DNA of 52,593 nucleotides from Patescibacteria group bacterium (GTDB lineage Bacteria; Patescibacteriota; UBA1384; UBA12157; JAENIV01), in assembly GCA_035288145.1 (NCBI GenBank), contig DATEAX010000028.1, positions 1 through 52,593 of the forward strand. The letters run 5' to 3'. Under the pieces are notes generated by a model. The model did not search any database and was not told the DNA's origin. It was given only the letters and a program-made list of their open reading frames with translations. Positions 24,388-52,593 of this stretch are shown in pieces. The position numbers and the translations under genes were made by a program. Position 1 is the first letter of the stretch. Each line of letters opens with the position of its first letter.

Positions 24388-24864
24388 TTATACCAACCTA
24401 ATCTCTTCTTGGGGTTTTAAAAAACGACCGGTCAAAAAATAAACAATTATTCCCCAGAAACCATTGATTAAGGCATCATAAATTATCTGCGGACCGGGCG
24501 GGATGCGGGCGTAAAGGAAAATTATTAAGTTGAGAAACAAAAAAATCATTACCAGAAAAAAATAAATCCAGCCGATATTCGGCGGAGGAACGGCCTTTAA
24601 AATGACAAAATTTAATAAAAGTAAAACCGCCAAGAGAAGTAAAGTGTAAATACCAAAACGGAGAGGGGAGGCCAGGTCCAAAAACAAACCCCCCAAAGAA
24701 GCCACGAGAAGGGCATCTTGAAAAAAACCTCGTAAAAGAAGAACAAGACTGACCAGATATATTAAATTCGGGATGACGGAAAAAAACGACCATTTCGAAA
24801 AAAAACTTAATTGCAAAATCACCAATAACAAGATGGCTAAAATTTTAATCATATTTGTTTTCAT
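24388..24864 (-). CDS. mreD: rod shape-determining protein MreD
   Basis: polytopic 158 aa membrane protein between mreC and mrdA. Confidence 0.75.
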   Translation of the reverse strand: MKTNMIKILAILLLVILQLSFFSKWSFFSVIPNLIYLVSLVLLLRGFFQDALLVASLGGLFLDLASPLRFGIYTLLLLAVLLLLNFVILKAVPPPNIGWIYFFLVMIFLFLNLIIFLYARIPPGPQIIYDALINGFWGIIVYFLTGRFLKPQEEIRLV

Positions 24865-41008: not shown

Positions 41009-41014
41009 CGTCGG

Positions 41015-41086
41015 TGCCGGATCGCAGAATCGAACTGCGGACACGTGGATTTTCAGTCCACTGCTCTGCCACTGAGCTAACCCGGC
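41015..41086 (-). tRNA. tRNA-Phe (anticodon GAA)
   Basis: reverse complement GCCGGGT-TA-GCTC-AGTGGCA-GAGC-A-GTGGA-CTGAAAA-TCCAC-GTGTC-CGCAG-TTCGATT-CTGCG-ATCCGGC-A. Confidence 0.92.
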
Positions 41087-41199
41087 AAAATGTTAAATTA
41101 AGAACGGGAATCGCCTATTTCCCATTTCGTCTTTCGAATTATCTTATTTGATTTTAGGAGGCTAATATTTAGATCTTTTTGAATATAGCAGAAAAGTAT

Positions 41200-41751: not shown

Positions 41752-41896
41752 ATTGTATCCTGACCAATACTCTTTAATCTTGACAAAAAACTTTTGATGA
41801 CGCAAGACCGGCAAAAAGCTATGGGAATATCATCCAGTCATAACTGCCGGCAGAAATGGCGGTTTTGTGTGATATAATTCTTATTAGTTAAAGGGG

Positions 41897-42748
41897 GTGA
41901 ACCATTTGTCACGCCAATGCCAGCGTCCTGGTTGCCCAACTCCGATTGCCGAATTTGTCGACCCGGAAGTCCTCTATTGTGGTTATTGCCAGTATGATTT
42001 GATACGCGGCATCCCGGATCTGGTCAGCAGCTATCTTGATGGCCGTTCCCTGCCAGATAAAGACATCCGTTTCCTCTTCAACCACTTAAAAGTAGAGACA
42101 AAAGAAGAGTTTTGCCCGGCTCGAGAATTCTCCTTGTACCTCGGATTCCACAAGGCCTACTTTAGCAAAACCCTTCAAAAGGATTGGCTCTCGGGCAAGA
42201 AAGTCAAAAGAAGCGACCCTCGGTGTCCGAAGAGACGCATCATCTGGATGATTCCTTTTGAGGAAACTGTCAGGATTTTGGACATCGAGCGCAACTGGAT
42301 TACTGTTTATCAAGCGGCCAAATTGGGCGTGAAACACCAGACACTGCTCCACTATGTCCATTTGGACTACTTTGGACCGACGCACCAGCACTATACCGGA
42401 GCATTGATGATTTCCCGGTCATTTCTTCCCCAATTTAAAGAGCGATATGCCGCAATTGTCAAGGAAAGAAGGAAGCTGAAGAGTCGTCGCTATTGGCAAA
42501 AAGACCGCTTAACTCCCGAGATAATCGGCTCGGTGCTCGGAGTTTCGGGGGGATCGGTCAGCACCTGGATAAGAAAGGGATGGCTACCGGCCAAGCGCTT
42601 CGGCCACTGGTGGCTGATTAAAAGACCGGATTTCCGGGAATTTCTCGAGCGGCTCGCCCGTGGCGAATTTTCCGTCCGTCCTCTGCCACCTGATAAGTGT
42701 CGAGCAATTCTGGAGTCCGCACCTTGGAAAAACCTCCCGATGTCTTAG
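41897..42748 (+). CDS. putative DNA-binding regulator: N-terminal Cys4 zinc ribbon plus three tandem excisionase/MerR-type (HTH_17-like) winged-helix modules
   Basis: CQRPGC..YCGYC; three modules each ending in W/h..I.r..h..h pattern, best one LTPEIIGSVLGVSGGSVSTWIRKGWLPAKRFGHWWLIKRPDFREFL; TTG 41906 has better RBS spacing than GTG 41897. Confidence 0.65.
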   Translation: MNHLSRQCQRPGCPTPIAEFVDPEVLYCGYCQYDLIRGIPDLVSSYLDGRSLPDKDIRFLFNHLKVETKEEFCPAREFSLYLGFHKAYFSKTLQKDWLSGKKVKRSDPRCPKRRIIWMIPFEETVRILDIERNWITVYQAAKLGVKHQTLLHYVHLDYFGPTHQHYTGALMISRSFLPQFKERYAAIVKERRKLKSRRYWQKDRLTPEIIGSVLGVSGGSVSTWIRKGWLPAKRFGHWWLIKRPDFREFLERLARGEFSVRPLPPDKCRAILESAPWKNLPMS

Positions 42749-42778
42749 CCCCGCACCATTTGGTGCGGGGCTTTCGTT
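42747..42778 (+). terminator. intrinsic terminator after the regulator gene
   Basis: AGCCCCGCACCA-TT-TGGTGCGGGGCT then TTCGTT. Confidence 0.65.
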
Positions 42779-42785
42779 AAAAAAA

Positions 42786-42814
42786 TTGACAAAATTTTCC
42801 GTCTTCGTTACATT
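42786..42814 (+). promoter_or_regulatory. sigma-70-type promoter of the lipoprotein/peptidase operon
   Basis: TTGACA 42786-42791, 17-nt spacer, TACATT 42809-42814. Confidence 0.55.
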
Positions 42815-42818
42815 AAGG

Positions 42819-42864
42819 GGCTTTACCCTGAAACCCGCGGGTAAGGCCTTAGCCAAGCGGGTTT
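42819..42864 (+). promoter_or_regulatory. 5' leader with two mutually exclusive hairpins
   Basis: hairpin 1 GGCTTTACCC 42819-42828 / GGGTAAGGCC 42839-42848; hairpin 2 AAACCCGC 42831-42838 / GCGGGTTT 42857-42864. Confidence 0.4.
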
Positions 42865-42914
42865 AGCATATTGAAAACAGATTCTGGCCAGTCATCAGAA
42901 AAAGGAGGAAACCA

Positions 42915-43475
42915 ATGAAAAAGCTGATGGCCGTAGTCGTGCTTTTGGCAATCGTGGGGTTAATTTACGCCTGCGTTGCCAAAACAGAAAAGACCATTCC
43001 GGAACCTTCGGGATTCCGGCTCTCCCGAACTCCCCAGGCAAGCATCGATTTGGTCCAAGACAGGGATTCTCAAAACATCGCGATTTCCTGGGTGAAAGAT
43101 GGGCAAGGCAGAATTGCCACGGTTAATGAGCCGATTGGCGAAGAGGTGACGATTGGCACCCCGCAGAATGAGGATTCAGAGCGGGGCGTTTCGGTTAACA
43201 TCAATCTGCCCAAAAGGGAAATCCAGAAGTACTGGCTCTGTCTTGAGGGCAAGAAGGGTCAGAAGTGCCGACTTGAAACCAGCTTTCTTGACGCAAGGGG
43301 TCGAATCTGGCCGAAAAAGCCGATGGGATTCTCTTTCCGGCTCCATCGTGAAGGCAAGGTCTTCCGGGCTTACCTTCTGCTCACCTGCAATCCCAAAAAA
43401 ACACCATCTCAAGCAATGACCTTATGGGAAGTTGCCAAAAAGGATGTTTTTCCGGGTCATGGAGGCAAGCGATGA
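42915..43475 (+). CDS. putative lipoprotein (186 aa), unknown family
   Basis: signal peptide ending GLIYAC; AGGAGG RBS; stop overlaps next start (ATGA). Confidence 0.65.
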   Translation: MKKLMAVVVLLAIVGLIYACVAKTEKTIPEPSGFRLSRTPQASIDLVQDRDSQNIAISWVKDGQGRIATVNEPIGEEVTIGTPQNEDSERGVSVNINLPKREIQKYWLCLEGKKGQKCRLETSFLDARGRIWPKKPMGFSFRLHREGKVFRAYLLLTCNPKKTPSQAMTLWEVAKKDVFPGHGGKR

Positions 43476-45424
43476 AAAGGCTCTTCATTCTCCTTGTCCT
43501 CCTTGCCGAGCCGACCTTTGGTTCGGAAACTTGGCATCTTCCGCCGGAAAACTGGGGACGGCTCCATATCCCCGCGGATGAAAACTACTCGACCGCGGGC
43601 CAGCTTTCTTCGACCATCGCCCAAGGCACGCGGGTGGGGGTTTTCGGCCGGGCCGGGGCAAATCTCGATTATGGCGGCTGGCAGCTCAAAACCACCAGCT
43701 TCTGGCTACCAAATTCCGCCACCGGCGAAGGAGAAGAATTCTGGCAGGCCGTCGGCAATGTCTATCTCAAACCAGGGGGATTTCCCCTGGCTTTGACCGG
43801 CGCGGGAGCAACTGATTACCCGACCACTGCGATGTGGGCAACCCAGGGCTATGCCGTGCCGCCGCTCTTCGGTCTTCCCCAAGTAAGCCAAAAGGGCAAC
43901 TTTTATCCTTACGCCGCTGACGGCAAGACCACCATTGCCCAAAATGGTTGTCTTCTCTGCAGCATCCTTGCCGGGGCCAAGCGGATCAACCGTTGCCCGT
44001 GGAGCATTGAATTCTACAACGACTGGCTGGCGCTAAACCACGGCTTCAATGTCCGCGATATCCGCTGTCCGATTGCCGCCAACCTGGTGGGATTCCAGTA
44101 CATCGGCGAGTTTAAGTGGAACATCGCGACGATTGAGAAGTATCATGCCCGCGATTGGCATGAGGTCGGTAAAATGGGAGTCAAGCGGCGAAACGGCAAA
44201 TGGGGCACCCACTTTGTCGGCATCTCGCCCGGAGTGATTTTGCCCGGTAAGATTTTGGGGATGATGGACCCAGCTTGCCGGTCGGATTACTTTAACCAGA
44301 CGCGCTATCGGCCGCGCCGGATTAAGGTTTTCGCCCCGGTCGTTCCCCAGGACAGCGCCAGCTTGGTGAGCATCCCCTATCTTTGGCGGCAAAACGGCTG
44401 GTGGCTCGGGACGCCGGTTTATCCGCCTGACTGGGGAACAATTGCCTCGGCTTCGGAGAATTCGTCTCCGGATGTTTCGTCGCGGCCAGCGGCCAATCAA
44501 TTGGCCGGCGCAACCCTGGCAAGTTCCGGTCTGGCCCGGCTCGATGCTTTTACCAATCAAAACGTCTTTCTCGAAAGGGTCGAGACGCCGCGGTTTATTT
44601 TGACCCCGGAAAATTCCGAGGAGGTCGCCGAAGGAGCAACTCTGGATACCGATTTCGGCAGTGCTCCCGAAGACGATGATTCACTCGAGATTGACGAGGA
44701 AGATTTGCTCTCCGAGCCGCCGCCGGACGATCATTCAGTCATGGGACTGCTGGCCGCACCGCAGGGTCGATACATCTTCTTCCTTTCCGGCCCGCCCAAT
44801 GCTCCTTACCAAGTGACTTGCTGGGGGATGGATAACCTCGGGAAGCCGATGGCGGACAAAATCCTTGCCGGCGTCCTTGACGCAAGCGGCAAAGCAAGTA
44901 CCTTTGTGGATTTTGACCCAGGTATCACCGCCTTCAAACTGGGTACTATCCGTCAAATGAGCGTCGGCTCCGAAGTGAGTTTCTCTTCGGAAGTGACCGA
45001 AACCTCGGCGACGGAGTTTTCCGTAGAGAATGCCGACCGAAGCGCCGGCGTAAAAGTCCTTTCATTGGCCGAGCCGTCAATCGGCGCGACGGTCTGGACG
45101 CGGGGCAAGGTAATCTCGCTTGCACCAGAGATTATTGTCGAAGCAACCGAGGTCAAAATCCTTGGAAGCGGTCTTCCGACCATCAAACCGCTCGGGATTG
45201 CCGGAAAATGGCCGACGCTTGCCAACGGACTGCTGGCAAAAATTGCCGGCAAAGTTGCCACCGTCAATGGTTCAACCGCGATTATCGATGATGGCGGAGA
45301 AATCCTGACATTGACCGCGGTCGACAAACCGCTCAAAACCGGGGACTTTGTGACTCTCGTCACCGTTCTTCGGGCAAACAAAATCCTCCGGCCAAGACCC
45401 GGCTCAATTCAAATCTTGGATTGA
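43472..45424 (+). CDS. secreted protein with papain-like Cys-His-Asp domain (C39/NlpC-P60-like order) and C-terminal OB-like module
   Basis: signal peptide MKRLFILLVLLAEPTFG; QNGCLLCSILAG, GKWGTHFVGI, MMDP; acidic linker; tail KIAGKVATVNGSTAIIDDGGEILTL resembles the tail of the 5008-6993 nuclease. Confidence 0.6.
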   Translation: MKRLFILLVLLAEPTFGSETWHLPPENWGRLHIPADENYSTAGQLSSTIAQGTRVGVFGRAGANLDYGGWQLKTTSFWLPNSATGEGEEFWQAVGNVYLKPGGFPLALTGAGATDYPTTAMWATQGYAVPPLFGLPQVSQKGNFYPYAADGKTTIAQNGCLLCSILAGAKRINRCPWSIEFYNDWLALNHGFNVRDIRCPIAANLVGFQYIGEFKWNIATIEKYHARDWHEVGKMGVKRRNGKWGTHFVGISPGVILPGKILGMMDPACRSDYFNQTRYRPRRIKVFAPVVPQDSASLVSIPYLWRQNGWWLGTPVYPPDWGTIASASENSSPDVSSRPAANQLAGATLASSGLARLDAFTNQNVFLERVETPRFILTPENSEEVAEGATLDTDFGSAPEDDDSLEIDEEDLLSEPPPDDHSVMGLLAAPQGRYIFFLSGPPNAPYQVTCWGMDNLGKPMADKILAGVLDASGKASTFVDFDPGITAFKLGTIRQMSVGSEVSFSSEVTETSATEFSVENADRSAGVKVLSLAEPSIGATVWTRGKVISLAPEIIVEATEVKILGSGLPTIKPLGIAGKWPTLANGLLAKIAGKVATVNGSTAIIDDGGEILTLTAVDKPLKTGDFVTLVTVLRANKILRPRPGSIQILD

Positions 45425-45433
45425 GCCATTTGC

Positions 45434-45466
45434 CCCCGCACCATTCTTTGAAGGGTGCGGGGTTTT
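45434..45466 (+). terminator. intrinsic terminator after the peptidase-like gene
   Basis: CCCCGCACC / GGTGCGGGG stem then TTTT. Confidence 0.7.
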
Positions 45467-45478
45467 CAATTACACCAC

Positions 45479-45509
45479 TTGACTTTTTTTTGCCATAATG
45501 TGATATAAT
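45479..45509 (+). promoter_or_regulatory. extended -10 promoter placing the TSS at or next to the ATG of 45516 (leaderless)
   Basis: TTGACT 45479-45484; TG-A-TATAAT 45501-45509; ATG at 45516; 12-mer TGTGATATAATT also at 41868-41879. Confidence 0.5.
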
Positions 45510-45515
45510 TAAAAT

Positions 45516-46028
45516 ATGAAACAACCAATTCTAAAAATCATTCTCATCATCCTCGCGGTCGCGATTCTCGGAACCGGGGTGGCCTACGGCACCATCAACT
45601 TGGTTAAAAGGAAAGAAAATCCCCCTTCACCCACCCCAACGCCGAGCATCACCCCCCGAATATCGCCGACCTCGCCGGCAACCACACCCACATTTGATAC
45701 GACGCCAAAATCCGCTGAAGTATTGACTGCCGCTTTACTCTGGGCAAGACGCGACGAGCTGGTGGGACAAACCGTCATTGTTGAAGATGTCGTTACTTTT
45801 CTTTCCAGCTGTCCGACAGTGGAAGGCGTCCGGCCCGAACAATGTTCGACCGGTCTTTATCTTGGAAGCCAGGAAGACAACAACTTTGCTCTCTATAAAA
45901 ACGGTAAGACAATCACCTGTCGAGGCATGCCCGCCACCTGTGAGGGTTTTGCCAAAGACCAAAAAAAGCGTTTTTCCGGGACTTTGGTCAAAAGCCAACT
46001 GACCACCTATTATCTTAATGTTCTCTAA
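45516..46028 (+). CDS. membrane-anchored protein with P/T/S linker (170 aa), unknown function
   Basis: N-terminal TM starting at residue 5, PSPTPTPSITP linker, Cys-containing globular domain. Confidence 0.6.
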   Translation: MKQPILKIILIILAVAILGTGVAYGTINLVKRKENPPSPTPTPSITPRISPTSPATTPTFDTTPKSAEVLTAALLWARRDELVGQTVIVEDVVTFLSSCPTVEGVRPEQCSTGLYLGSQEDNNFALYKNGKTITCRGMPATCEGFAKDQKKRFSGTLVKSQLTTYYLNVL

Positions 46029-46059
46029 GCCGCCTTTTTTCTAATTTACGGGTAAAAAC

Positions 46060-46088
46060 TTGACAGGGCCTTAAAAATCCTCTATACT
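46060..46088 (+). promoter_or_regulatory. sigma-70-type promoter of 46145-46567
   Basis: TTGACA 46060-46065, 17-nt spacer, TATACT 46083-46088. Confidence 0.55.
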
Positions 46089-46144
46089 ATCCTCAAATCC
46101 GAGCGATCGGCTTCTCCCGCAGGTTCACAGGGAGGTGATTTCCG

Positions 46145-46567
46145 ATGACACTCGGCGAGGCGAAAGAGATTTTGAAGGGGTATTACCCTTTCAGAATCCA
46201 AAGAAAACGATTGCGTCTTAACCTAGACGCGCTGGCCAAAGAAACAAACTACCAACCGCTGGTAGATGGCCCAACTCAAAAGAGCTGGCCGATATCAGAC
46301 CTGATCCCCAACGAATCGCCGGATAAGCAGGCACGATTTCGTGCCGCTTTCCGGACGATCTGGGAAGCGGAAAAACTGAAGGTGGAAGGGTTGTGGGACG
46401 ACCCCTGGTGGACCGATCTCAAGGTAGAACCGTTTTCGAAGCGGCAGACCTCCGAGATCTATCTCTGGGTTTCCAAGAGTTTGTCCCTATCACAAATCCG
46501 AATCCTCGAGGACACCCTCGAGCAAATTGCCCCTGAAGCAGTTTGCTTTGAAAGGGTGGCCGCATAA
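46145..46567 (+). CDS. orphan protein (140 aa)
   Basis: GGAGGTGA RBS 6 nt upstream; own promoter and terminator. Confidence 0.55.
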   Translation: MTLGEAKEILKGYYPFRIQRKRLRLNLDALAKETNYQPLVDGPTQKSWPISDLIPNESPDKQARFRAAFRTIWEAEKLKVEGLWDDPWWTDLKVEPFSKRQTSEIYLWVSKSLSLSQIRILEDTLEQIAPEAVCFERVAA

Positions 46568-46586
46568 CCGAACTTGCGGGAGTTTC

Positions 46587-46630
46587 TGCCCCGGTGTTGT
46601 TTTCGCCCAACTCAACCGGGGCATTTTTTT
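46587..46630 (+). terminator. intrinsic terminator
   Basis: TGCCCCGGT 46587-46595 / ACCGGGGCA 46615-46623 then TTTTTTT. Confidence 0.7.
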
Positions 46631-46668
46631 AAGTATTTAATATTTGAAGTCCGTTTGAGTCCGGAAAT

Positions 46669-47289
46669 TTAATCCAATGGCGTCGGGGTGGGGGTGGGTG
46701 CGAAGAGACAGGTGATTGGGTCCTTTATTTCACCTGTAGATTCATTGCCCGATGGATCCCGAAATTTTACCCAAACCGTTTTGGTGGAAAAGGGGTTGCC
46801 GCAGGGCGAGCCGCCATAGCGGTCATCAGCCAGATTCCAATTCGTCCGGGTGGTTTGGTATGCCTCGTATGGGCTCCATTTGGTCGTCGGAGGGTTGCCG
46901 GCAAGATAATTATTGGTAAATTTCATCGCCTGAACCGTGCCGTTGTTATCAGTAGCGCTTAAATTCAAAGTCACCGCGGTCCCTCCTGTTACTTTCGGAG
47001 CATCATTATTGATTTTGATGGTGCCGGTCGGCGGGGTAATGTCCCCAAGCACTTGGGTCTCCAGGGTGTTGCTTAAGATATTGTGGCTTCCCTGACTATC
47101 GGTATAATTTAGACTAGCGGTATTTTGAATTGTGCCAATAACCTCGGCTTTAAAAACCTGGGTGGAAATAAAGATGCCGGCAGCAAGGAGTGTCAGCCCA
47201 TACAAGCCAAAAATAATTTTCTGCCGTTTAGCCAGACGGTGAAAAGTTTTTTTAAGCCAGGCGATAATTTTTTTGGTCATTGGACTCAA
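46669..47289 (-). CDS. membrane-anchored surface protein (206 aa), Ig-like/DUF11-like beta domains
   Basis: N-terminal TM; beta-rich; PTPTPTP tail; 10-nt gap to the LVIVD gene. Confidence 0.55.
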   Translation of the reverse strand: MSPMTKKIIAWLKKTFHRLAKRQKIIFGLYGLTLLAAGIFISTQVFKAEVIGTIQNTASLNYTDSQGSHNILSNTLETQVLGDITPPTGTIKINNDAPKVTGGTAVTLNLSATDNNGTVQAMKFTNNYLAGNPPTTKWSPYEAYQTTRTNWNLADDRYGGSPCGNPFSTKTVWVKFRDPSGNESTGEIKDPITCLFAPTPTPTPLD

Positions 47290-47299
47290 TCTCCCCTAT

Positions 47300-49570
47300 T
47301 TAATTTGCCGTTACCTGAAAAGTGACTGTAATCGTGCTCCCCGGTTGGCCCGTGGGGGCAATGCTTTGAAATTGGAAACCGCTGAAATAAAGAACATTGT
47401 TGTTAAGAGTAAAACTGTCGTCGCCAGCGGCTTCGGTGACGGTCGAGCCATTGACTTTGGTCTGACCCGAAACATAGGTGGAACCGGCAGGGACGGCATC
47501 AGCTAAACTTAAGGCCGTCATCGTCTGGCTGGTGGGGTTGGTAATCGTTAAAGTGTAGGCGATTGTTCCGCCGCGGCTGACCGATGAGGGTCCGGTTTTG
47601 ACAAGTTGAAGCGGGGTCGGGGTCGTCCCGACTGAAGCAATGTCTATCAAATAATTATCGTCGGTTAAGAAGGCGTAACCCCCGGAAGCGGTCACGGCGC
47701 GGACAACACCGACAACACCGCCAGGATATGGCAATGTCAGAAAAGCCGTCTCTTGGGGAGCGGCGGGATTGCTAACATTGAAAATCTGGAGACCCTTAGT
47801 GGTGTTGCTGGAGATGGCGACATAAGCCGAAGTTCCCGAGACATATACCCCGAACGCCGAGTCCTTAGTCACTGTCCTGGAAACCTGCTGAAGAGCGCTG
47901 GGATTGCTGATGTTCAAGATATAGAGACCGGCGGTTCTGGCCGCCACATAGGCAAGGTTTCCGGAGATAACCACATCGTTGGCAAAATTAGCGGTCGTAA
48001 ATGAACTCAATATTCGTGGAGCGGCGGCATTGGCAACATCAATGCTCTGAACCGCGCCGGTGCTGGTGCCGCTACCATCAGCAACAATTGCCGTATTGCC
48101 GCTTACTGCGACGGAAAAAGCCTGTCCAGGGGTATCCAGCTGACCAAGAATACTGGGAGCGGCGGGATTACTGACATTGGCAATCACCAAACCGGCCAAA
48201 TAATCGGCAATGTAGGCCTTGCCCGAAGCCACCGTTACCCCGTAGCCGGAATCGGGCAAGTTCAGAGTTCCTGTAAGTGTTGGGCTAAGGGGATTTTGGA
48301 TGTTGATGATTTTGAGAGTTTGATTATCCGTGGCGTAAAGGTAATTGCCCTCAATGGTCAAGTCGTTGACTGCTCCGAGGGTGAAAGTGGCGATATGAAC
48401 CGGGGCATTGGGCTGACTGATATTGTAAATCCAAATGTCGGCCTTGTTGCCGCTAGAAACATTGTTCACTGCGTAAAGATAAGACCCGCTTATGGCAACC
48501 GCCGGCACATTAATCACCTTGCCTAAACGCCCCAAGACCGATGGACTCGAGGGATTGGTGATATTAATGGTTACCAGACCGCCTTGGCCGCTGGCAACGA
48601 CTGCAAACCCGCTGACAACGGCTGGCCGGCCGCGCAAGAAGCCGGTGAGAGCCACAAAAGAAGCGCTCTGGGGCAAAGCCGGGTTAGAAAGATTAAAGAT
48701 TTCCAAACCGTTATTCGTCGTAATGCCAGAATATTCGGTCATAAAAAGGTAGCTGCCGAGAACGGTCAAACCAGAGGCCGCCCCTCTGGTAATTACCCTG
48801 TTGACCAATTGGGGACTGCTGGGATTGGCAATGCTTACAACAAGAAGTCCGCCGGTAGAAATGTTGGCATCGGCGACATAGGCATAGCTACCACTTAAGC
48901 TAACATCCATGGCGACGGCGGCGGCCAGCGTTCCTAAAACCCGGGGAGATGCGGAATTGCTGACATCAGCGGTAATCACGCCGGTCGTATCGGCAATCAC
49001 CGCGGTTGTTCCGGTAATGGCCGATGCCCGGGCAAAGTTCGGCGTATTTAAAGTGCCGAGAACACTGGGAGCGGCAGGATTGCTAATGTTGATGATTGCC
49101 AAACCGAGGGTGCCGATACTCACATAGGCCTTGGTCCCGGAAATGGTTATCCCGTTAATTGCCTCTCCCAAAGTTAGGGAACCCGCCACGACCGGATTAG
49201 CGGGATCGGTGACTTGAAAAACCTTAAAATTCTTATCAGCCCCGACATAAGCGTAATTTCCCGAGACAGCGATAGCAAGGAAGATGGTCGAATCAAAAAA
49301 ACTTTTAACAAGAATCTTGCTCGGTGTGCTTACATCAGCGATATGGAAACCAAGCGATGAAGTCGTATAAACGTAATTTCCGGCTATCGCCACTTGATAG
49401 GTCTCGCCGCTCATCGCCGGCGTTTTACCAATCCACTGGGCGGTTTGGGCTTCGGCTTTGGGAACAACTTTACCCGCAAAGTTAAAAGAAAGCACACTTG
49501 TCAGCAAGAGCGACAAAACTATCCCTTGGAGAACTTTAATAATGATAAATCCCCGTTTGGCCTGTTTCAA
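47300..49570 (-). CDS. secreted LVIVD-repeat beta-propeller protein with C-terminal DUF11-type domain
   Basis: signal peptide; ~40-aa repeats (SGNYAYVA.., GL.I.NISNPAAP, GTL); tail GGTIAYTLTITNPTSQ..AVPAGSTYVSG. Confidence 0.8.
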   Translation of the reverse strand: MKQAKRGFIIIKVLQGIVLSLLLTSVLSFNFAGKVVPKAEAQTAQWIGKTPAMSGETYQVAIAGNYVYTTSSLGFHIADVSTPSKILVKSFFDSTIFLAIAVSGNYAYVGADKNFKVFQVTDPANPVVAGSLTLGEAINGITISGTKAYVSIGTLGLAIINISNPAAPSVLGTLNTPNFARASAITGTTAVIADTTGVITADVSNSASPRVLGTLAAAVAMDVSLSGSYAYVADANISTGGLLVVSIANPSSPQLVNRVITRGAASGLTVLGSYLFMTEYSGITTNNGLEIFNLSNPALPQSASFVALTGFLRGRPAVVSGFAVVASGQGGLVTINITNPSSPSVLGRLGKVINVPAVAISGSYLYAVNNVSSGNKADIWIYNISQPNAPVHIATFTLGAVNDLTIEGNYLYATDNQTLKIINIQNPLSPTLTGTLNLPDSGYGVTVASGKAYIADYLAGLVIANVSNPAAPSILGQLDTPGQAFSVAVSGNTAIVADGSGTSTGAVQSIDVANAAAPRILSSFTTANFANDVVISGNLAYVAARTAGLYILNISNPSALQQVSRTVTKDSAFGVYVSGTSAYVAISSNTTKGLQIFNVSNPAAPQETAFLTLPYPGGVVGVVRAVTASGGYAFLTDDNYLIDIASVGTTPTPLQLVKTGPSSVSRGGTIAYTLTITNPTSQTMTALSLADAVPAGSTYVSGQTKVNGSTVTEAAGDDSFTLNNNVLYFSGFQFQSIAPTGQPGSTITVTFQVTAN

Positions 49571-49599
49571 ACTCCCTCCTTTTAATGCGGTCTATATTT

Positions 49600-49627
49600 A
49601 TTATAAACCGACATTTCATTCTGTCAA
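49600..49627 (-). promoter_or_regulatory. sigma-70-type promoter of the LVIVD operon
   Basis: minus strand TTGACA (49627-49622), 16-nt spacer, TATAAT (49605-49600). Confidence 0.5.
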
Positions 49628-49635
49628 GTAAAATT

Positions 49636-49670
49636 TTAAAAAACAATCCCCATCCGTATGGATGGGGATT
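49636..49670 (-). terminator. intrinsic terminator of the phosphatase-like gene
   Basis: AATCCCCATCC 49646-49655 / GGATGGGGATT 49660-49670, T-run on the minus strand. Confidence 0.7.
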
Positions 49671-50104
49671 TAACCGCCGTGCTTGAGGGAAAAATTGCGC
49701 CAAAAGTTCTCTTGACTGCCGGTTTCAACCGGTCCCGCTTTCTCCATCACCTGATGGAACGAAAGATTCCTTTCGCGAATCAGCCACAAGCCAGCCATCA
49801 GATTCGTCCTGCCCTTACCATAACGGCTGTGAATAAGAACAGGATGCTTCAGAAGTATCTCGTGGTAAAGAATTTCAAAAAACTCTTCAAGTTCGCGGCA
49901 AGACGGCGTATCACCCTCTTTAAGATAAAGGGTATAATGGGCGATGCACCGACGTTTGATCTCTTCTTCCGTTTCTTTAGAGAGCGGCTCTAAAGAGATA
50001 ATCGCTTCAATCCCTTTATCAAAAAGAAACTTGATATCCTCTGCTTCAGGCATCTCTGACCCGGCCAAGACACCTTCCTCGAACCATTGAAATCGGTCAT
50101 GCAT
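49670..50104 (-). CDS. dual-specificity/PTP-fold phosphatase homologue with Ser in place of the nucleophile Cys
   Basis: VLIHSRYGKGRTNLMAGLWLI aligns to the HCxxGxxR(S/T) P-loop; Ser codon AGC at 49826-49828. Confidence 0.7.
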   Translation of the reverse strand: MHDRFQWFEEGVLAGSEMPEAEDIKFLFDKGIEAIISLEPLSKETEEEIKRRCIAHYTLYLKEGDTPSCRELEEFFEILYHEILLKHPVLIHSRYGKGRTNLMAGLWLIRERNLSFHQVMEKAGPVETGSQENFWRNFSLKHGG

Positions 50105-50206
50105 TCATCTCACCCCCTTTCACCCCTTTGTATCTTGTTATCCGTTAGAATAGCACAGTTTCCTCCGAATTGCCAGAACAAATCCGTGATAAAAACGGTC
50201 GTCTTA

Positions 50207-50245
50207 CAAAAAGAGCCCCCACACCTTGCAAGCAGGGTGTGGGGG
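50207..50245 (-). terminator. intrinsic terminator closing the vWA operon
   Basis: CCCCCACACC 50216-50225 / GGTGTGGGGG 50236-50245; minus strand continues CTCTTTTT. Confidence 0.75.
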
Positions 50246-50250
50246 ATAGA

Positions 50251-51147
50251 CTAGTCGGTAATCGCCAGCGGCCGCATCGCTCTTTCGACGATGGGCCCTA
50301 CCCCCGGGGAAACCGGGAAAGTGAACTCATCGCGCCTTGTCCACGTCGGCTCCTTAACCAGAAACTCGACGTGAAGCCAGGGAGCTGTCTGATGGAGGAA
50401 AACCACCGCCAGCTCCTTTTCGCCAGCGTTCTCGGCAATGGCAATCGCCCGCTCAAGGCAGACATCGGCGTTCGGCTGGTCCTTTACGACCACGACCTTG
50501 GCCGGATAGATATTCGGCAGGATCGGGGTGAAGGTCTCCGCCAGCCAAAGTCCGGAGCTGGCGGTCTTGCCGGAGAAATGATTGACCGCCTCTTCGGCCA
50601 GCTTGAAATGGGCCACAGTTCTCGTCCTGTCCATTTGCTGGGCCTGCGTCGGCAGCATCATTTCCCGGCTCGACCGATTAACTTCGCCCGCCAGCTGGTT
50701 GGTCTTTTCGATGAGCAATTGGCCGTAATGGCGAGAATCCTCGTCTTGGCGGTCAATATTGCCTAAAACGGAGACAACCTGTCCGCCGGTGCGGGGAAAA
50801 CCGGTACCCATAAGGTAATTGAACTGAAATTCATCCTCATTGGGTTTGAGGGAAATCGCCCGATTCATCGTCCCGAGATCGTCGATATAGAGCCCGCGCA
50901 GACTGGTCGGGATTTCCGATGCCTCCTCAATCGTTGTCTCGTGTCCTTCGGCGTCAATCCCCATATGCCGGTAGCAACTGGCGAGAAAAATCGCCCGGTC
51001 CCGCTCCGGGTCATAGATATCGGTCTTGCCGATTATCTCCCGTACACGAACCGCCTTCAGCGTACCGGCTTTCTCGAGACACCGGGCCTTTTCCATGCCG
51101 CCGTCGTGAGCGCCGCCGTCAATCATCGCAGGTGTTCTTGTTTGCAT
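50251..51147 (-). CDS. soluble protein of unknown family (298 aa), last gene of the vWA operon
   Basis: ATG 51147 is 6 nt after AAAGGAGGTGA (the track start 51165 lies inside that RBS); no motif recognised. Confidence 0.6.
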   Translation of the reverse strand: MQTRTPAMIDGGAHDGGMEKARCLEKAGTLKAVRVREIIGKTDIYDPERDRAIFLASCYRHMGIDAEGHETTIEEASEIPTSLRGLYIDDLGTMNRAISLKPNEDEFQFNYLMGTGFPRTGGQVVSVLGNIDRQDEDSRHYGQLLIEKTNQLAGEVNRSSREMMLPTQAQQMDRTRTVAHFKLAEEAVNHFSGKTASSGLWLAETFTPILPNIYPAKVVVVKDQPNADVCLERAIAIAENAGEKELAVVFLHQTAPWLHVEFLVKEPTWTRRDEFTFPVSPGVGPIVERAMRPLAITD

Positions 51148-51161
51148 CTTATCACCTCCTT

Positions 51162-51890
51162 TCATCCATCAATGGCCGTAAATGTTACCGGAAATTGCTT
51201 TTGAGACCAGCTCTTGAAAAACTGGTTAAAGATTCTCCGGAGCCGTTCGTGATCTTTAAGATGCACGGCCTGTTTTTTGTTGACCAAGCCCGGATACCAG
51301 TAAATCTTGATGTTTACGGGCGGGCTATTCGGTCTTGGACAAACCTTCGCCATCTCCTCAAGAATCTCGGAGTCGCTGCGCGCTTTAAGATAAGCCCTCG
51401 TCAGAGTCAACTCCTTCGAAGATTGGAGAAGATCGGAAATTACCACCAGATGCCACTTGCCGGTACCGGACTGGGTCAAAACCTCGTTTACAAAGTCGAT
51501 TACCTCAAGAAGCGGGGTACTGCCAACCCTGGGATTCTCGGCAAAGGCCCGCTCAACTTTGACCACCATCTCCTTGACCTGACTTTGTCTAGATTTCCAG
51601 GCCGGGGGAGAAATCTGGAGGGTATGTTGAGCAACGATCCGATAACAATAGGCCTCGCCGGCGGGAGCAAAGAAAATCATTTTCCACTTGGCGCCGGAGG
51701 AATACTTCAGGGCAAAATCTCTGGCCGCCTGCTTAGCATGATTTAAGGCGGCATCGGCTTGAACTACCAAGCTGTGGCTATTGTCGACGATCAAATACTC
51801 CTCCTGATAAGTATTACCAGTGTCCATCGGCATGCACCCAGGGAGAAAAAGCCAAAGGGTTAGAAAAACCATCTTTCTCAAGGCTTGCAT
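51162..51890 (-). CDS. vWA-domain lipoprotein with complete MIDAS motif
   Basis: lipobox LFLPGC; YLIVDNSHSL (DxSxS), GSTPLL (Thr), HLVVISD (Asp); ATG 51890 with CAGGAGGTGG RBS. Confidence 0.75.
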   Translation of the reverse strand: MQALRKMVFLTLWLFLPGCMPMDTGNTYQEEYLIVDNSHSLVVQADAALNHAKQAARDFALKYSSGAKWKMIFFAPAGEAYCYRIVAQHTLQISPPAWKSRQSQVKEMVVKVERAFAENPRVGSTPLLEVIDFVNEVLTQSGTGKWHLVVISDLLQSSKELTLTRAYLKARSDSEILEEMAKVCPRPNSPPVNIKIYWYPGLVNKKQAVHLKDHERLRRIFNQFFKSWSQKQFPVTFTAIDG

Positions 51891-52578
51891 CGTCACCACC
51901 TCCTGTATTCCCGTCCATCGAGCATTCGGCAATCCGGAAGCCATATCTTGCTAAAGTTGGACGAAGCTCCTCGACGGTCGTCGTCAAAGTGTGATTGATG
52001 AGTCGATTGACCTCCTCGGCTGAACGGCGGATTCTTTCTTCCAGCTCGCCAATCCGACGCTGAAGATGCCGCTGGATTCTCTCTTGATGTCTGACTCTTT
52101 CAGCCCGCTCCAGCTCGTTGTGATCCTGCTGCATCTTTGCCCGAAAAGCGTTAAACTTCTTAATCTCGCTCTCGATACCTCGGCTAAGGGTGATATCCCT
52201 AAGCTCTTGGGCGATTTTTGTCAGGATCTTATCTGTCTTATCATCAATCGCCTTGGCCTTATCAAGAAACTTGGCCGCCAAGTAACTAATGACCGGAATT
52301 GGGGCAATGTTGGCAATGCCAAGAGACAAACTCGCGGCATCAAAACCCTCTAAACCGCCAATGCCGGCACGTAACAGACCAAGAGCCGCGGTAATAATCA
52401 AGAATATACTACCGCCGACGATTCTTAACCGGGCGAGTTCGTGGGCTCCCCAGATTAAAGCGACAACAACACCGAATGTCAGCAGATAGGGCAGGGCGAC
52501 AAAAGAACCTTCAGTACCCCGGTAGGCCTCGGCAATCACCAAGAATGTCAAGCTGCTGTCAATGCTCGCAAGGAACAT
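51814..52578 (-). CDS. membrane protein with three to four N-terminal TM helices and a long charged coiled coil
   Basis: hydrophobic first ~105 aa, then KILTKIAQELRDI..ELERAERVRHQERIQRHLQRRIGELEERIRR; 3' end overlaps the vWA gene by 77 nt. Confidence 0.6.
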   Translation of the reverse strand: MFLASIDSSLTFLVIAEAYRGTEGSFVALPYLLTFGVVVALIWGAHELARLRIVGGSIFLIITAALGLLRAGIGGLEGFDAASLSLGIANIAPIPVISYLAAKFLDKAKAIDDKTDKILTKIAQELRDITLSRGIESEIKKFNAFRAKMQQDHNELERAERVRHQERIQRHLQRRIGELEERIRRSAEEVNRLINHTLTTTVEELRPTLARYGFRIAECSMDGNTGGGDDASLEKDGFSNPLAFSPWVHADGHW

Positions 52579-52593
52579 CGCTCCAACCTTAAC

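What the first reader, a model, noticed from the sequence alone, without database searches (positions are those of the whole stretch)
41868..46630. About 4.8-kb G+C-rich accessory island of five plus-strand genes with a modular promoter and terminator layout
From 41.87 to 46.63 kb the strand polarity flips to plus and G+C rises visibly. Line 43501-43560 has 36 G+C of 60, against 23 of 60 at 24541-24600. Every transcription unit has textbook signals: TGTGATATAATT extended -10 boxes at 41868 and 45499, TTGACA-17-TACATT at 42786, TTGACA-17-TATACT at 46060, and GC-stem terminators at 42747, 45434 and 46587. Two of the terminators share the CCCCGCACC/GGTGCGGGG stem. All five products are orphans to my eye. 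No integrase, att repeat or phage structural gene is visible, so the mode of acquisition is unclear.
Basis: partly seen in the sequence, partly recalled or inferred. Interest (0 to 1): 0.6.

Follow-up and report, generated by a model that had tools for sequence, protein, structure and literature searches.

The report
Lineage-specific GC-rich gene mosaic, not a discrete island
The five plus-strand genes are real, GC-rich and absent from this site in related genomes, but they are only the left half of a patchwork of at least 10.7 kb of separately acquired envelope and regulator genes with no mobility machinery, which makes it an ordinary variable region in a tiny bacterial genome.

Summary
The 4.8-kb block has 52.8% G+C against 44.6% for the genome, and it ranks among the four richest of 814 windows.

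The "island" boundaries are only half right. The left edge, after the PAP2 gene at 41814, is a true synteny break in all eight other genomes of the family. The right edge at 46630 is not a boundary. Raised G+C, raised GC3, atypical tetranucleotides and loss of synteny all continue to the contig end at 52593.

There is no integrase and there are no flanking repeats. The promoters and the CCCCGCACC terminator stem are in the host genome's own style.

The block holds four transcription units:
- **g1:** a DNA-binding protein with a zinc ribbon and excisionase-type HTH. Its family is scattered patchily in relatives.
- **g2-g3:** a translationally coupled cassette, also found in five unrelated genomic contexts. 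g3 is a secreted multidomain protein with a remote C39_2-like Cys160-His247-Asp266 peptidase domain and tandem OB folds.
- **g4:** an anchored protein, probably translated from a leaderless mRNA, with an orphan Cys-rich domain.
- **g5:** a true ORFan.

Independent assemblies reproduce the arrangement, so it is not a chimera. I file it as an accessory mosaic of moderate interest.

The parts
41013..41086 (-). tRNA-Phe(GAA). It belongs to the conserved left flank and is not the insertion point, because PAP2 lies between it and the variable region.
   Evidence: ARAGORN; Rfam tRNA at 66.6 bits
41200..41814 (-). PAP2-family phosphatase gene, the last gene still syntenic with relatives. It marks the left boundary of the variable region.
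   Evidence: Pfam PAP2, E 2.3e-19. Homologues at 50-63% identity sit in the same place in G001, G004, G007 and G008.
41844..41853 (.). Perfect 10-bp palindrome CTGCCGGCAG at the -35 position of the g1 promoter. It is a candidate operator and is untested.
   Evidence: (I15) and 97: the only exact copy in the window
41868..41879 (+). Extended -10 promoter (TG-TGATATAAT-T) of g1
41906..42748 (+). g1, a 280-aa DNA-binding protein. It has an N-terminal Cys-rich zinc-ribbon-like motif followed by excisionase/HTH_17-type winged-helix modules. The ORF can also be read from GTG 41897.
   Evidence: NCBIfam TIGR01764 'excise' at 29.0 bits (cut-off 28.8) on residues 208-249. Pfam HTH_17 E 5e-5, below cut-off. 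Family alignment with invariant Cys and Trp. The 280-aa call in other assemblies.
42749..42770 (+). Terminator hairpin CCCCGCACC-ATTT-GGTGCGGGG after g1
   Evidence: -25 kcal/mol, z -6.3
42786..42814 (+). Sigma-70-type promoter TTGACA-17-TACATT of the g2-g3 operon, followed by a leader of about 100 nt
   Evidence: 10 of 12 matches
42915..43475 (+). g2, a 186-aa small protein with an N-terminal signal or anchor (lipobox-like ...LIYAC). It is the upstream partner in a conserved two-gene cassette.
   Evidence: 34% identity, E 2e-26, to the ORF directly upstream of the closest g3 homologue. An equivalent 163-197-aa ORF lies directly upstream of each of the five g3 homologues examined, overlapping it by 1-4 nt or ending 1 nt before it.
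43472..45424 (+). g3, a 650-aa secreted multidomain protein. In order: signal peptide; beta-sandwich (about 19-123); papain-like C39_2-type domain (about 130-290) with Cys160, His247 and Asp266; acidic linker; Ig-like domain; two C-terminal OB folds (about 500-650).
   Evidence: ATGA overlap with g2 and a GGAGG 6 nt upstream. Family alignment with invariant H247 and D266. AlphaFold2 model with pLDDT 79.5 and pTM 0.76. hhalign against Peptidase_C39_2 gives 89% probability, E 2e-6, with the triad aligned; shuffled and reversed controls score no more than 18.5 against 41.9. OB-fold structural matches.
45434..45462 (+). Terminator hairpin with the same CCCCGCACC/GGTGCGGGG stem, after g3
   Evidence: -21 kcal/mol, z -3.3
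45499..45510 (+). Extended -10 promoter of g4. It ends 6 nt before the ATG, so the mRNA is probably leaderless.
   Evidence: Three other TGnTATAAT sites in the genome have the same 7-nt offset to an ORF start.
45516..46028 (+). g4, a 170-aa protein with an N-terminal TM anchor, a Pro/Thr-rich linker and an orphan Cys-rich C-terminal domain
   Evidence: Only residues 2-106 (anchor, linker and at most about 30 residues beyond) find weak matches in 162 genomes of the class. No family hit.
46060..46088 (+). Sigma-70-type promoter TTGACA-17-TATACT of g5
   Evidence: 11 of 12 matches, the best in the region
46145..46567 (+). g5, a 140-aa ORFan with no signal peptide
   Evidence: Only itself among 5.8 billion clusters. 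No family hits.
46587..46621 (+). Terminator hairpin plus a T7 run after g5
   Evidence: -23.5 kcal/mol, z -2.6
46669..52593 (-). Continuation of the lineage-specific, GC-elevated region on the minus strand. It holds an anchored Ig-like protein, an LVIVD-repeat/DUF11 surface protein, a DSP-phosphatase-fold protein and three unknowns, and it runs to the contig end.
   Evidence: G+C 50.9%. GC3 at the 59th-99th percentile. Same tetranucleotide distance as the plus-strand block. No counterpart at the syntenic site in relatives. Pfam hits.

Best explanation
The 4.8-kb plus-strand block is the left part of a lineage-specific, GC-elevated region of at least 10.7 kb (41.87-52.59 kb, open at the contig end). 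This region sits directly after the conserved block DHH / lactamase_B / S1 / TM protein / tRNA-Phe / PAP2. The genome is very small (0.66 Mb) and CPR-like.

The region is not one mobile element. It is a mosaic of small, independently distributed gene modules that now run on the host's own promoter and terminator style:
1. **g1** is monocistronic. It encodes a zinc-ribbon plus excisionase-type winged-helix DNA-binding protein, probably a transcription regulator.
2. **g2-g3** is a translationally coupled cassette that occurs as a self-contained pair in unrelated genomes. In every locus examined it is G+C-richer than its surroundings.
3. **g4** is probably leaderless and encodes a membrane-anchored Cys-rich protein.
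4. **g5** is an ORFan.

Shown:
- the anatomy of the block;
- its absence from the syntenic site in relatives;
- the composition;
- the cassette's conservation;
- the remote homology to the peptidase family;
- the validity of the assembly.

Inferred:
- The modules arrived by horizontal transfer and illegitimate or homologous recombination, not by a site-specific integrase.
- g3 is exported and acts as a cysteine peptidase or amidase on cell-wall or surface substrates, targeted by its OB and Ig-like domains.
- g2 is its membrane-anchored partner, acting as inhibitor, immunity protein or chaperone.
For: **Synteny.** The left-flank genes are collinear in 8 of 8 family genomes. After PAP2 or the TM protein, those genomes reach homologues of own contig C47 within 1.3-2.8 kb, and none carries any gene of 41.9-52.6 kb there.

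**Composition.** G+C ranks 4th of 814 windows. GC3 is raised in 13 of the 13 ORFs from g1 to the contig end. Tetranucleotide distance has z of about +3.9 for both halves.

**No mobility genes.** The only tyrosine recombinase is on contig C49. No boundary repeats were found and there are no phage-structural or defence-family hits.

**Independent module histories.**
- g1 homologues occur in 6 of 40 relatives, each in a different context.
- A g3 homologue occurs in only 1 of 8 family genomes, elsewhere in that genome.
- The g3 family has about a dozen full-length representatives among 1.8 billion proteins.
- The closest g3 homologue (43% identity) lies on a 231-kb contig with PurL and PFOR, whereas the same-family homologue shares only 27%.

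**Cassette.** The g2-like plus g3-like pair is conserved in all 5 other loci examined. It is G+C-richer than its locus in 6 of 6 cases.

**Peptidase domain.** Searches support it. Viral 'Peptidase' structural matches have TM-scores of 0.43-0.45.

**Host-style signals.**

**Not a chimera.** Thirteen contigs from many samples carry g5. The eight shown are collinear with the window over the parts they cover, and a 15.5-kb contig spans sigma-70 to the gene after g5.
Against: - There is no genome of the same genus for comparison, so the time and direction of acquisition cannot be fixed. 'Absent in relatives' holds only at inter-genus distance (64-75% identity for the S1 protein).
- After G+C normalisation the tetranucleotide signature is only mildly atypical (correlation 0.885 against a mean of 0.939, z about -1.8).
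- The terminator stem and promoters are in the native style. The LVIVD and Ig-like genes to the right have 56-60% paralogues elsewhere in the same genome. Part of the region could therefore be old, fast-evolving native surface-protein DNA.
- g3 hits no Pfam, NCBIfam or PDB sequence model directly, and the PDB fold search returned only the OB domains.
- The role of g2 is pure inference.
- The right boundary is unknown because the contig ends.
Confidence: 0.65

Rival explanations
1. It is a discrete 4.8-kb genomic island (41868-46630) acquired in one event by a mobile element, with the excisionase-like g1 as a relic of its recombination module.
For: The strand switch and G+C rise begin sharply at 41.87 kb. 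g1 carries an excisionase-family HTH domain. tRNA-Phe lies 0.8 kb to the left.
Against: There is no integrase in the window, and the only one in the genome is on C49. No direct repeats sit at the proposed ends. Composition and the synteny break continue past 46630. The five genes never co-occur elsewhere, and g1 and g2-g3 have separate distributions. g1 homologues sit alone among housekeeping genes. The tRNA is separated from the block by the conserved PAP2 gene, and its 3' end faces away.
Confidence: 0.08
2. It is a native, fast-evolving envelope-protein locus. The genes are old residents of the lineage that diverged beyond recognition, and G+C is raised by amino-acid composition and expression-linked codon choice, not by transfer.
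For: The promoters and the CCCCGCACC terminator stem are genome-wide features. The neighbouring LVIVD and Ig-like genes have paralogues in the same genome. The G+C-normalised tetranucleotide signature is only mildly atypical. Most products are secreted or anchored, a class that evolves quickly. The g2-g3 cassette is G+C-richer than its context in every genome, which could reflect an intrinsic bias.
Against: GC3, which is largely free of amino-acid effects, is raised in all five genes (z +0.7 to +2.0), including the cytoplasmic g1 and g5. The g3 family is phyletically incongruent, with 43% identity to a homologue in a non-reduced genome against 27% in the same family. All eight relatives have only 1.3-2.8 kb at this site.
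Confidence: 0.2
3. It is an assembly or binning artefact: a G+C-rich fragment of another organism joined to a CPR contig.
For: It holds the highest G+C in a fragmented 62-contig MAG, and it lies at a contig end.
Against: The junction PAP2 | g1 is 100% identical in four independent assemblies. A 15.5-kb contig from another sample spans sigma-70 through g5 to the next minus-strand gene, and 13 contigs in all carry g5 in contexts collinear with the window.
Confidence: 0.02

Closest known systems
Classical tRNA-linked genomic islands and integrative elements
   Same: Atypical G+C and codon usage, absence from relatives at a conserved chromosomal site, a cargo of surface and secreted proteins, and a nearby tRNA gene.
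   Different: There is no integrase or other recombinase, no att duplication, and it is not inserted in the tRNA. The content is several independently distributed modules. The regulatory signals are in the host's own style.
Peptidase_C39_2 (PF13529), C39-like papain-fold cysteine peptidases. They are described as single-domain peptidases related to bacteriocin-processing C39 (PMC10318531) and are counted among the catalytic domains of phage endolysins (PMC8223927).
   Same: The g3 domain at about 130-290 aligns profile-to-profile with its Cys, His and Asp matched to the family's catalytic triad. The Cys lies near the start of a helix and the His on a beta-strand in the model.
   Different: There is no direct HMM hit, so it is below family membership by sequence. 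It is embedded in a 650-aa secreted protein with beta-sandwich, Ig-like and tandem OB domains. It is always paired with a small upstream partner gene.
Co-transcribed papain-like protease / inhibitor pairs such as staphopain-staphostatin (recalled from general knowledge, not tested here)
   Same: A papain-fold cysteine hydrolase gene is tightly coupled to a small partner gene in one operon.
   Different: Here the partner lies upstream, carries a signal or anchor sequence, and shows no detectable similarity to staphostatins. Inhibition is only a hypothesis.
Excisionase / MerR-like HTH_17 DNA-binding proteins (TIGR01764, PF12728)
   Same: The C-terminal module of g1 reaches the NCBIfam cut-off. 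Two further modules fit the same pattern in the family alignment.
   Different: The protein is 280 aa with an N-terminal zinc-ribbon-like motif and several tandem modules, has no partner integrase, and its homologues sit singly among housekeeping genes.

Membership tests
Integrase-mediated genomic island | Composition atypical for the host genome | tested here: met
   G+C ranks 4th of 814 windows. GC3 is at the 76th-98th percentile. Tetranucleotide distance ranks 5th of 416.
Integrase-mediated genomic island | Absent from the same site in related genomes | tested here: met
   0 of 8 family genomes carry any of these genes after PAP2. Only inter-genus comparisons were possible.
Integrase-mediated genomic island | Integrase or other recombinase gene within or beside the island | tested here: not met
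   The single PF00589 match in the genome lies on contig C49. No PHROG integration hit apart from a weak HTH match.
Integrase-mediated genomic island | Flanking direct repeats (att) at both ends | tested here: not met
   No boundary repeat of 14 nt or more between 41.8 kb and either 46.6 kb or the contig end. The true right end may lie beyond the contig.
Integrase-mediated genomic island | Insertion at the 3' end of a tRNA gene | tested here: not met
   tRNA-Phe at 41013-41086 is on the minus strand with its 3' end facing left, and the conserved PAP2 gene separates it from the block.
Peptidase_C39_2 (PF13529) / clan CA | Match to the family HMM above the gathering score | tested here: not met
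   No Pfam hit for g3 or for any of 13 family members at E up to 1.
Peptidase_C39_2 (PF13529) / clan CA | Profile-profile homology to bona fide members | tested here: met
   hhalign against 20 PF13529 domains from relatives gives 89.4% probability, E 2.1e-6 and score 41.9. The reversed control scores 18.5 and 30 column shuffles score at most 14.7.
Peptidase_C39_2 (PF13529) / clan CA | Conserved Cys-His-Asp triad in the right order and structural setting | tested here: met
   Cys160 is present in all members that cover the region, and H247 and D266 are invariant. They align to the family's C, H and D. Cys lies in helix 156-172, His in strand 244-257 and Asp at the end of strand 261-266.
Peptidase_C39_2 (PF13529) / clan CA | Hydrolytic activity | not testable with these tools
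   Needs expression and assay.
Excisionase (Xis/AlpA type) | HTH_17 / TIGR01764 DNA-binding domain | tested here: met
   TIGR01764 at 29.0 bits against a cut-off of 28.8. Pfam HTH_17 at 23.9 bits, below the cut-off of 27.
Excisionase (Xis/AlpA type) | Small single-domain protein encoded next to its integrase | tested here: not met
   g1 is 280 aa and multi-module. There is no integrase nearby, here or next to its homologues.

The most novel reading that the evidence does not exclude
The g2-g3 pair is a self-contained, horizontally travelling module made of a secreted cysteine hydrolase and a membrane-anchored inhibitor or immunity partner. A host-dependent ultra-small bacterium uses it on the envelope of its host or of competitors. 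The site downstream of PAP2 is a recombinase-independent capture hotspot where such envelope modules accumulate and are refitted with native promoters and terminators.
Probability: 0.15. Interest if true: 0.6.

Novelty: new member of a known kind. Interest (0 to 1): 0.35.

Why it matters
Ultra-small, host-dependent bacteria have little room for accessory DNA. A patch of at least 10.7 kb (at least 1.6% of the 0.66-Mb assembly) of lineage-specific envelope and regulator genes at one site shows where such genomes stay flexible.

The region also offers concrete candidates for host-interaction functions. The most useful is the g2-g3 cassette. It is a rare, cross-lineage two-gene module built round a remote C39-like peptidase, and its substrate and partner function can be tested directly.

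As a genomic island in the strict sense, the finding is ordinary and its proposed limits are wrong on the right side.

Tried and rejected
- **Single-sequence AlphaFold2 of g3:** it failed (pLDDT 31). Only the 13-sequence alignment gave a usable model.
- **PDB fold search of the whole g3 model:** it returned only OB-fold matches and nothing for the peptidase domain.
- **Profile search of the g3 family against PDB sequences:** nothing. Pfam on all family members also gave nothing.
- **The search for related loci in genome contigs:** the g3 alignment was not conserved enough, and the single protein found no relatives.
- **Metagenome scan with PAP2, looking for sister species:** it found only the same strain and distant PAP2 proteins.
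- **Joining C28's right end to another contig:** no end overlaps were found. Synteny in relatives predicts that contig C47 follows, but adjacency is unproven.
- **Identical TGTGATATAATT 12-mers as evidence of a duplicated 'module':** rejected. With 60 TGnTATAAT sites in the genome, several pairs sharing four extra bases are expected by chance (own estimate).
- **Rfam:** no RNA family in the block apart from the tRNA.
- **PADLOC:** no defence system.


Full report
**Setting.** The window is the whole of contig C28 of a 664-kb, 62-contig assembly with 44.6% G+C and 92.7% estimated completeness. Its relatives have genomes of 0.5-1.3 Mb. From this I infer an ultra-small, CPR/Patescibacteria-type bacterium.

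**Observation.**
- two TGTGATATAATT boxes at 41868 and 45499;
- TTGACA-17-TACATT at 42786;
- TTGACA-17-TATACT at 46060;
- three GC-stem hairpins;
- the 36/60 against 23/60 G+C counts.

The hairpins fold at -25, -21 and -23.5 kcal/mol, well below shuffled sequence.

The five plus-strand ORFs are real, and gene calls in independent assemblies reproduce them. Two starts need correcting. g1 begins at TTG 41906, giving 280 aa with an AGGGGG seven bases upstream. g3 begins at ATG 43472, giving 650 aa. This ATG overlaps the g2 stop as ATGA and has GGAGG six bases upstream. There are therefore four transcription units, not five. No hairpin follows g4.

**Composition.**
- The block has 52.8% G+C, against a mean of 44.5% (sd 2.5) for 4.8-kb windows. 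It is 4th of 814, and every richer window overlaps it.
- GC3 of the five genes is 0.53-0.64, against a genome mean of 0.48 (sd 0.08). That is the 76th to 98th percentile.
- Tetranucleotide distance from the genome mean ranks 5th of 416, z about +3.9. After G+C normalisation the deviation is mild (correlation 0.885 against 0.939, z about -1.8).
- None of this stops at 46630. The stretch 46631-52593 has 50.9% G+C, the same tetranucleotide distance, and GC3 up to the 99th percentile.

**Boundaries by synteny.** The block DHH phosphoesterase / lactamase_B / S1 protein / 147-aa TM protein (then PAP2) is collinear in all eight other genomes of the family. In those genomes the next genes, 1.3-2.8 kb further on, are homologues of own contig C47 (5070 to 1317), followed by C33 and C10. 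None of the 13 ORFs of 41.9-52.6 kb is found there.

The left edge (41814/41868) is therefore a true break. I could not link C28 to C47 by sequence overlap. No genome of the same genus is available, and the large protein collections hold only near-identical copies of g1, g3 and g5. 'Accessory' is therefore shown only at inter-genus distance.

**Not an artefact.** The PAP2 | g1 junction is 100% identical in four independent assemblies. A 15.5-kb contig from another sample spans the sigma-70 gene through g5 into the next minus-strand gene, and 13 contigs from many samples carry g5; the eight shown are collinear with the window over the parts they cover.

**Mobility.**
- The window has no integrase or transposase, and the single tyrosine recombinase of the genome is on C49.
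- There are no boundary repeats.
- There are no phage-structural or defence-system hits.
- tRNA-Phe lies 0.8 kb to the left, but the conserved PAP2 gene lies between it and the block, and its 3' end faces away.

**Regulatory signals are in the host's style.** TGnTATAAT occurs 60 times in the genome. Of these, 43 lie in the 14% that is intergenic, and 30 lie within 150 nt upstream of a same-strand ORF. Three other sites share g4's 7-nt offset to the start codon, so leaderless starts are not peculiar to the block.

The CCCCGCACC...GGTGCGGGG hairpin recurs on contigs C14, C31 and C55, at gene ends on C14 and C55. The two identical 12-mers are within what consensus plus chance would give. So the 'modular textbook layout' is real, but it is how this genome writes its genes in general. 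If the DNA is foreign, its non-coding signals have been supplied or reshaped by the host.

**g1.**
- It carries an excisionase-family HTH at residues 208-249 (TIGR01764, 29.0 bits against a cut-off of 28.8; Pfam HTH_17 is below cut-off).
- Its homologues (26-35% identity) occur in 6 of 40 relatives, and four of these were aligned with it. The alignment shows an N-terminal Cys-rich motif and two further segments with the same helix-turn-helix-plus-Trp pattern.
- The homologues sit singly in different contexts. One lies between fusA and tuf, one between pyrimidine-synthesis genes, one beside dinB, and one beside a restriction-modification and defence cluster.
- I read g1 as a multi-module DNA-binding regulator and not as an excisionase.
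- A perfect palindrome, CTGCCGGCAG, lies at the -35 position of its own promoter and is unique in the window. It is a candidate operator, untested.

**g2-g3: a conserved cassette.** g3 belongs to a rare family. There are 22 hits, about a dozen of them full-length, among 1.8 billion representatives. It has no Pfam, NCBIfam, PHROG or PDB sequence match.

In all five other loci examined, a 163-197-aa ORF with an N-terminal hydrophobic segment lies directly upstream, overlapping the g3 homologue by 1-4 nt or ending 1 nt before it. The flanking genes are unrelated from locus to locus. The partner of the closest homologue is 34% identical to g2, E 2e-26, and the others are very divergent.

The closest g3 relative (43% identity) lies on a 231-kb contig that also encodes PurL and pyruvate:ferredoxin oxidoreductase, so I infer its genome is not a reduced one. 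The homologue in the same family (G001) shares only 27% and lies elsewhere in that genome, next to typA and a cyclophilin gene. In all six loci the cassette is G+C-richer than the rest of the locus, by 2 to 12 points. Together these points favour repeated horizontal movement of the pair, although an intrinsic compositional bias is not excluded.

**g3: architecture.** With the 13-sequence alignment, AlphaFold2 gives pLDDT 79.5 and pTM 0.76. The domains, in order, are:
1. a signal peptide;
2. a beta-sandwich;
3. an alpha/beta domain;
4. a disordered acidic linker;
5. an Ig-like sandwich;
6. two OB folds.

The OB folds match RPA, Stn1, YgiW and HIN-type structures. By sequence they also recur in large surface proteins rich in CarboxypepD_reg repeats.

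**g3: the peptidase domain.** The alpha/beta domain carries Cys160 (present in every member covering it) and invariant His247 and Asp266. I took twenty Peptidase_C39_2 domains from relatives' genomes and compared profiles. hhalign gave 89% probability, E 2e-6 and score 41.9, with Cys, His and Asp aligned to the family's triad. A reversed control scored 18.5, and thirty column shuffles scored at most 14.7. Two phage 'Peptidase' models match structurally with TM-scores of 0.43-0.45.

PF13529 is described as a family of single-domain peptidases close to the bacteriocin-processing C39 family (PMC10318531). It is also listed among the catalytic domains of phage lysins (PMC8223927). I therefore treat g3 as a secreted papain-fold hydrolase that works like a C39_2 peptidase. 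It does not meet the family's own HMM threshold.

The substrate (peptidoglycan stem peptides, or surface or host proteins) is inferred. So is the role of g2 (anchored inhibitor, immunity protein or chaperone).

**g4 and g5.** g4 has a TM anchor, a Pro/Thr linker and a Cys-rich C-terminal domain. Only residues 2-106 (the anchor, the linker and at most about 30 residues beyond) find weak matches in 162 genomes of the class. g5 has no homologue beyond itself in 5.8 billion clusters and no family hit. Both have good expression signals and are present in all independent assemblies, so they are probably real genes of unknown role.

**Verdict.** The interpretation 'accessory' is supported, but 'a 4.8-kb island' is not. 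The block is the plus-strand half of a larger lineage-specific mosaic of envelope and regulator modules that lacks any mobility apparatus and uses native signals.

I hold the best explanation at 0.65: horizontally derived modules accumulated at a flexible site. The main rival is a fast-evolving native surface locus (0.2). A single integrative element (0.08) and an assembly artefact (0.02) are unlikely.

As a class of thing it is known, and the most interesting component is the g2-g3 cassette.

Noticed in passing
window 44385-44417 and 44939-44958 (g3); locus L025: Another assembly of the same population (ENA ERZ28563625) lacks 33 nt, an in-frame loss, at 44385-44417 and about 19 nt at about 44939-44958. 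The second loss shifts the frame, so g3 is split there into 483-aa and 149-aa ORFs. This is either population heterogeneity with partial pseudogenisation or an assembly error.
   Followed up: partly
own genome contigs C14:6229, C31:17123, C55:5213; window 42749 and 45434: The same hairpin stem, CCCCGCACC / GGTGCGGGG, recurs five times in a 664-kb genome, at gene ends on C14 and C55. It is either a shared terminator style or a small palindromic repeat family.
   Followed up: partly
genome-wide; window 45501-45516: Four TGnTATAAT boxes in the genome end exactly 6 nt before an ORF start (an offset of 7), and two more lie at offsets of 4 and 10. This suggests that leaderless mRNAs are a regular feature of this organism.
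   Followed up: partly
loci L012, L032, L054, L056, L057 and window 42915-45424: The g2-g3-type cassette is G+C-richer than the rest of its locus in all six genomes examined, by 2 to 12 points.
   Followed up: partly
window 41045-41199; L017 4035-5153, L018 3989-5026, L023 2805-3830: Three genomes of a sister genus carry a 341-372-aa gene between the TM protein and PAP2. Its homologue in this genome lies on another contig (C23:1149-2216). The conserved flank has therefore also been rearranged locally.
   Followed up: no
L014 6950-7756 (genome G007): A g1-family gene and a 295-aa membrane-protein gene lie between fusA and tuf, interrupting the otherwise conserved str-operon neighbourhood.
   Followed up: no
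window 41844-41853: The perfect palindrome CTGCCGGCAG lies at the -35 position of the g1 promoter and is the only exact copy in the window. It is a possible autoregulatory operator.
   Followed up: partly
L064 1-59 (JGI contig Ga0209322_10079097); window about 43007: A 1.5-kb metagenome contig is 100% identical to window 43007-41529. Its last 59 nt match nothing in this genome, and the break lies at the inverted repeat at 42999-43019. It is probably a chimeric contig end.
   Followed up: partly
window 46669-49570; own contigs C48, C6, C3: The anchored Ig-like protein and the LVIVD-repeat protein to the right of the block have 56-60% identical paralogues on three other contigs. They form a small multigene family of surface proteins.
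   Followed up: no
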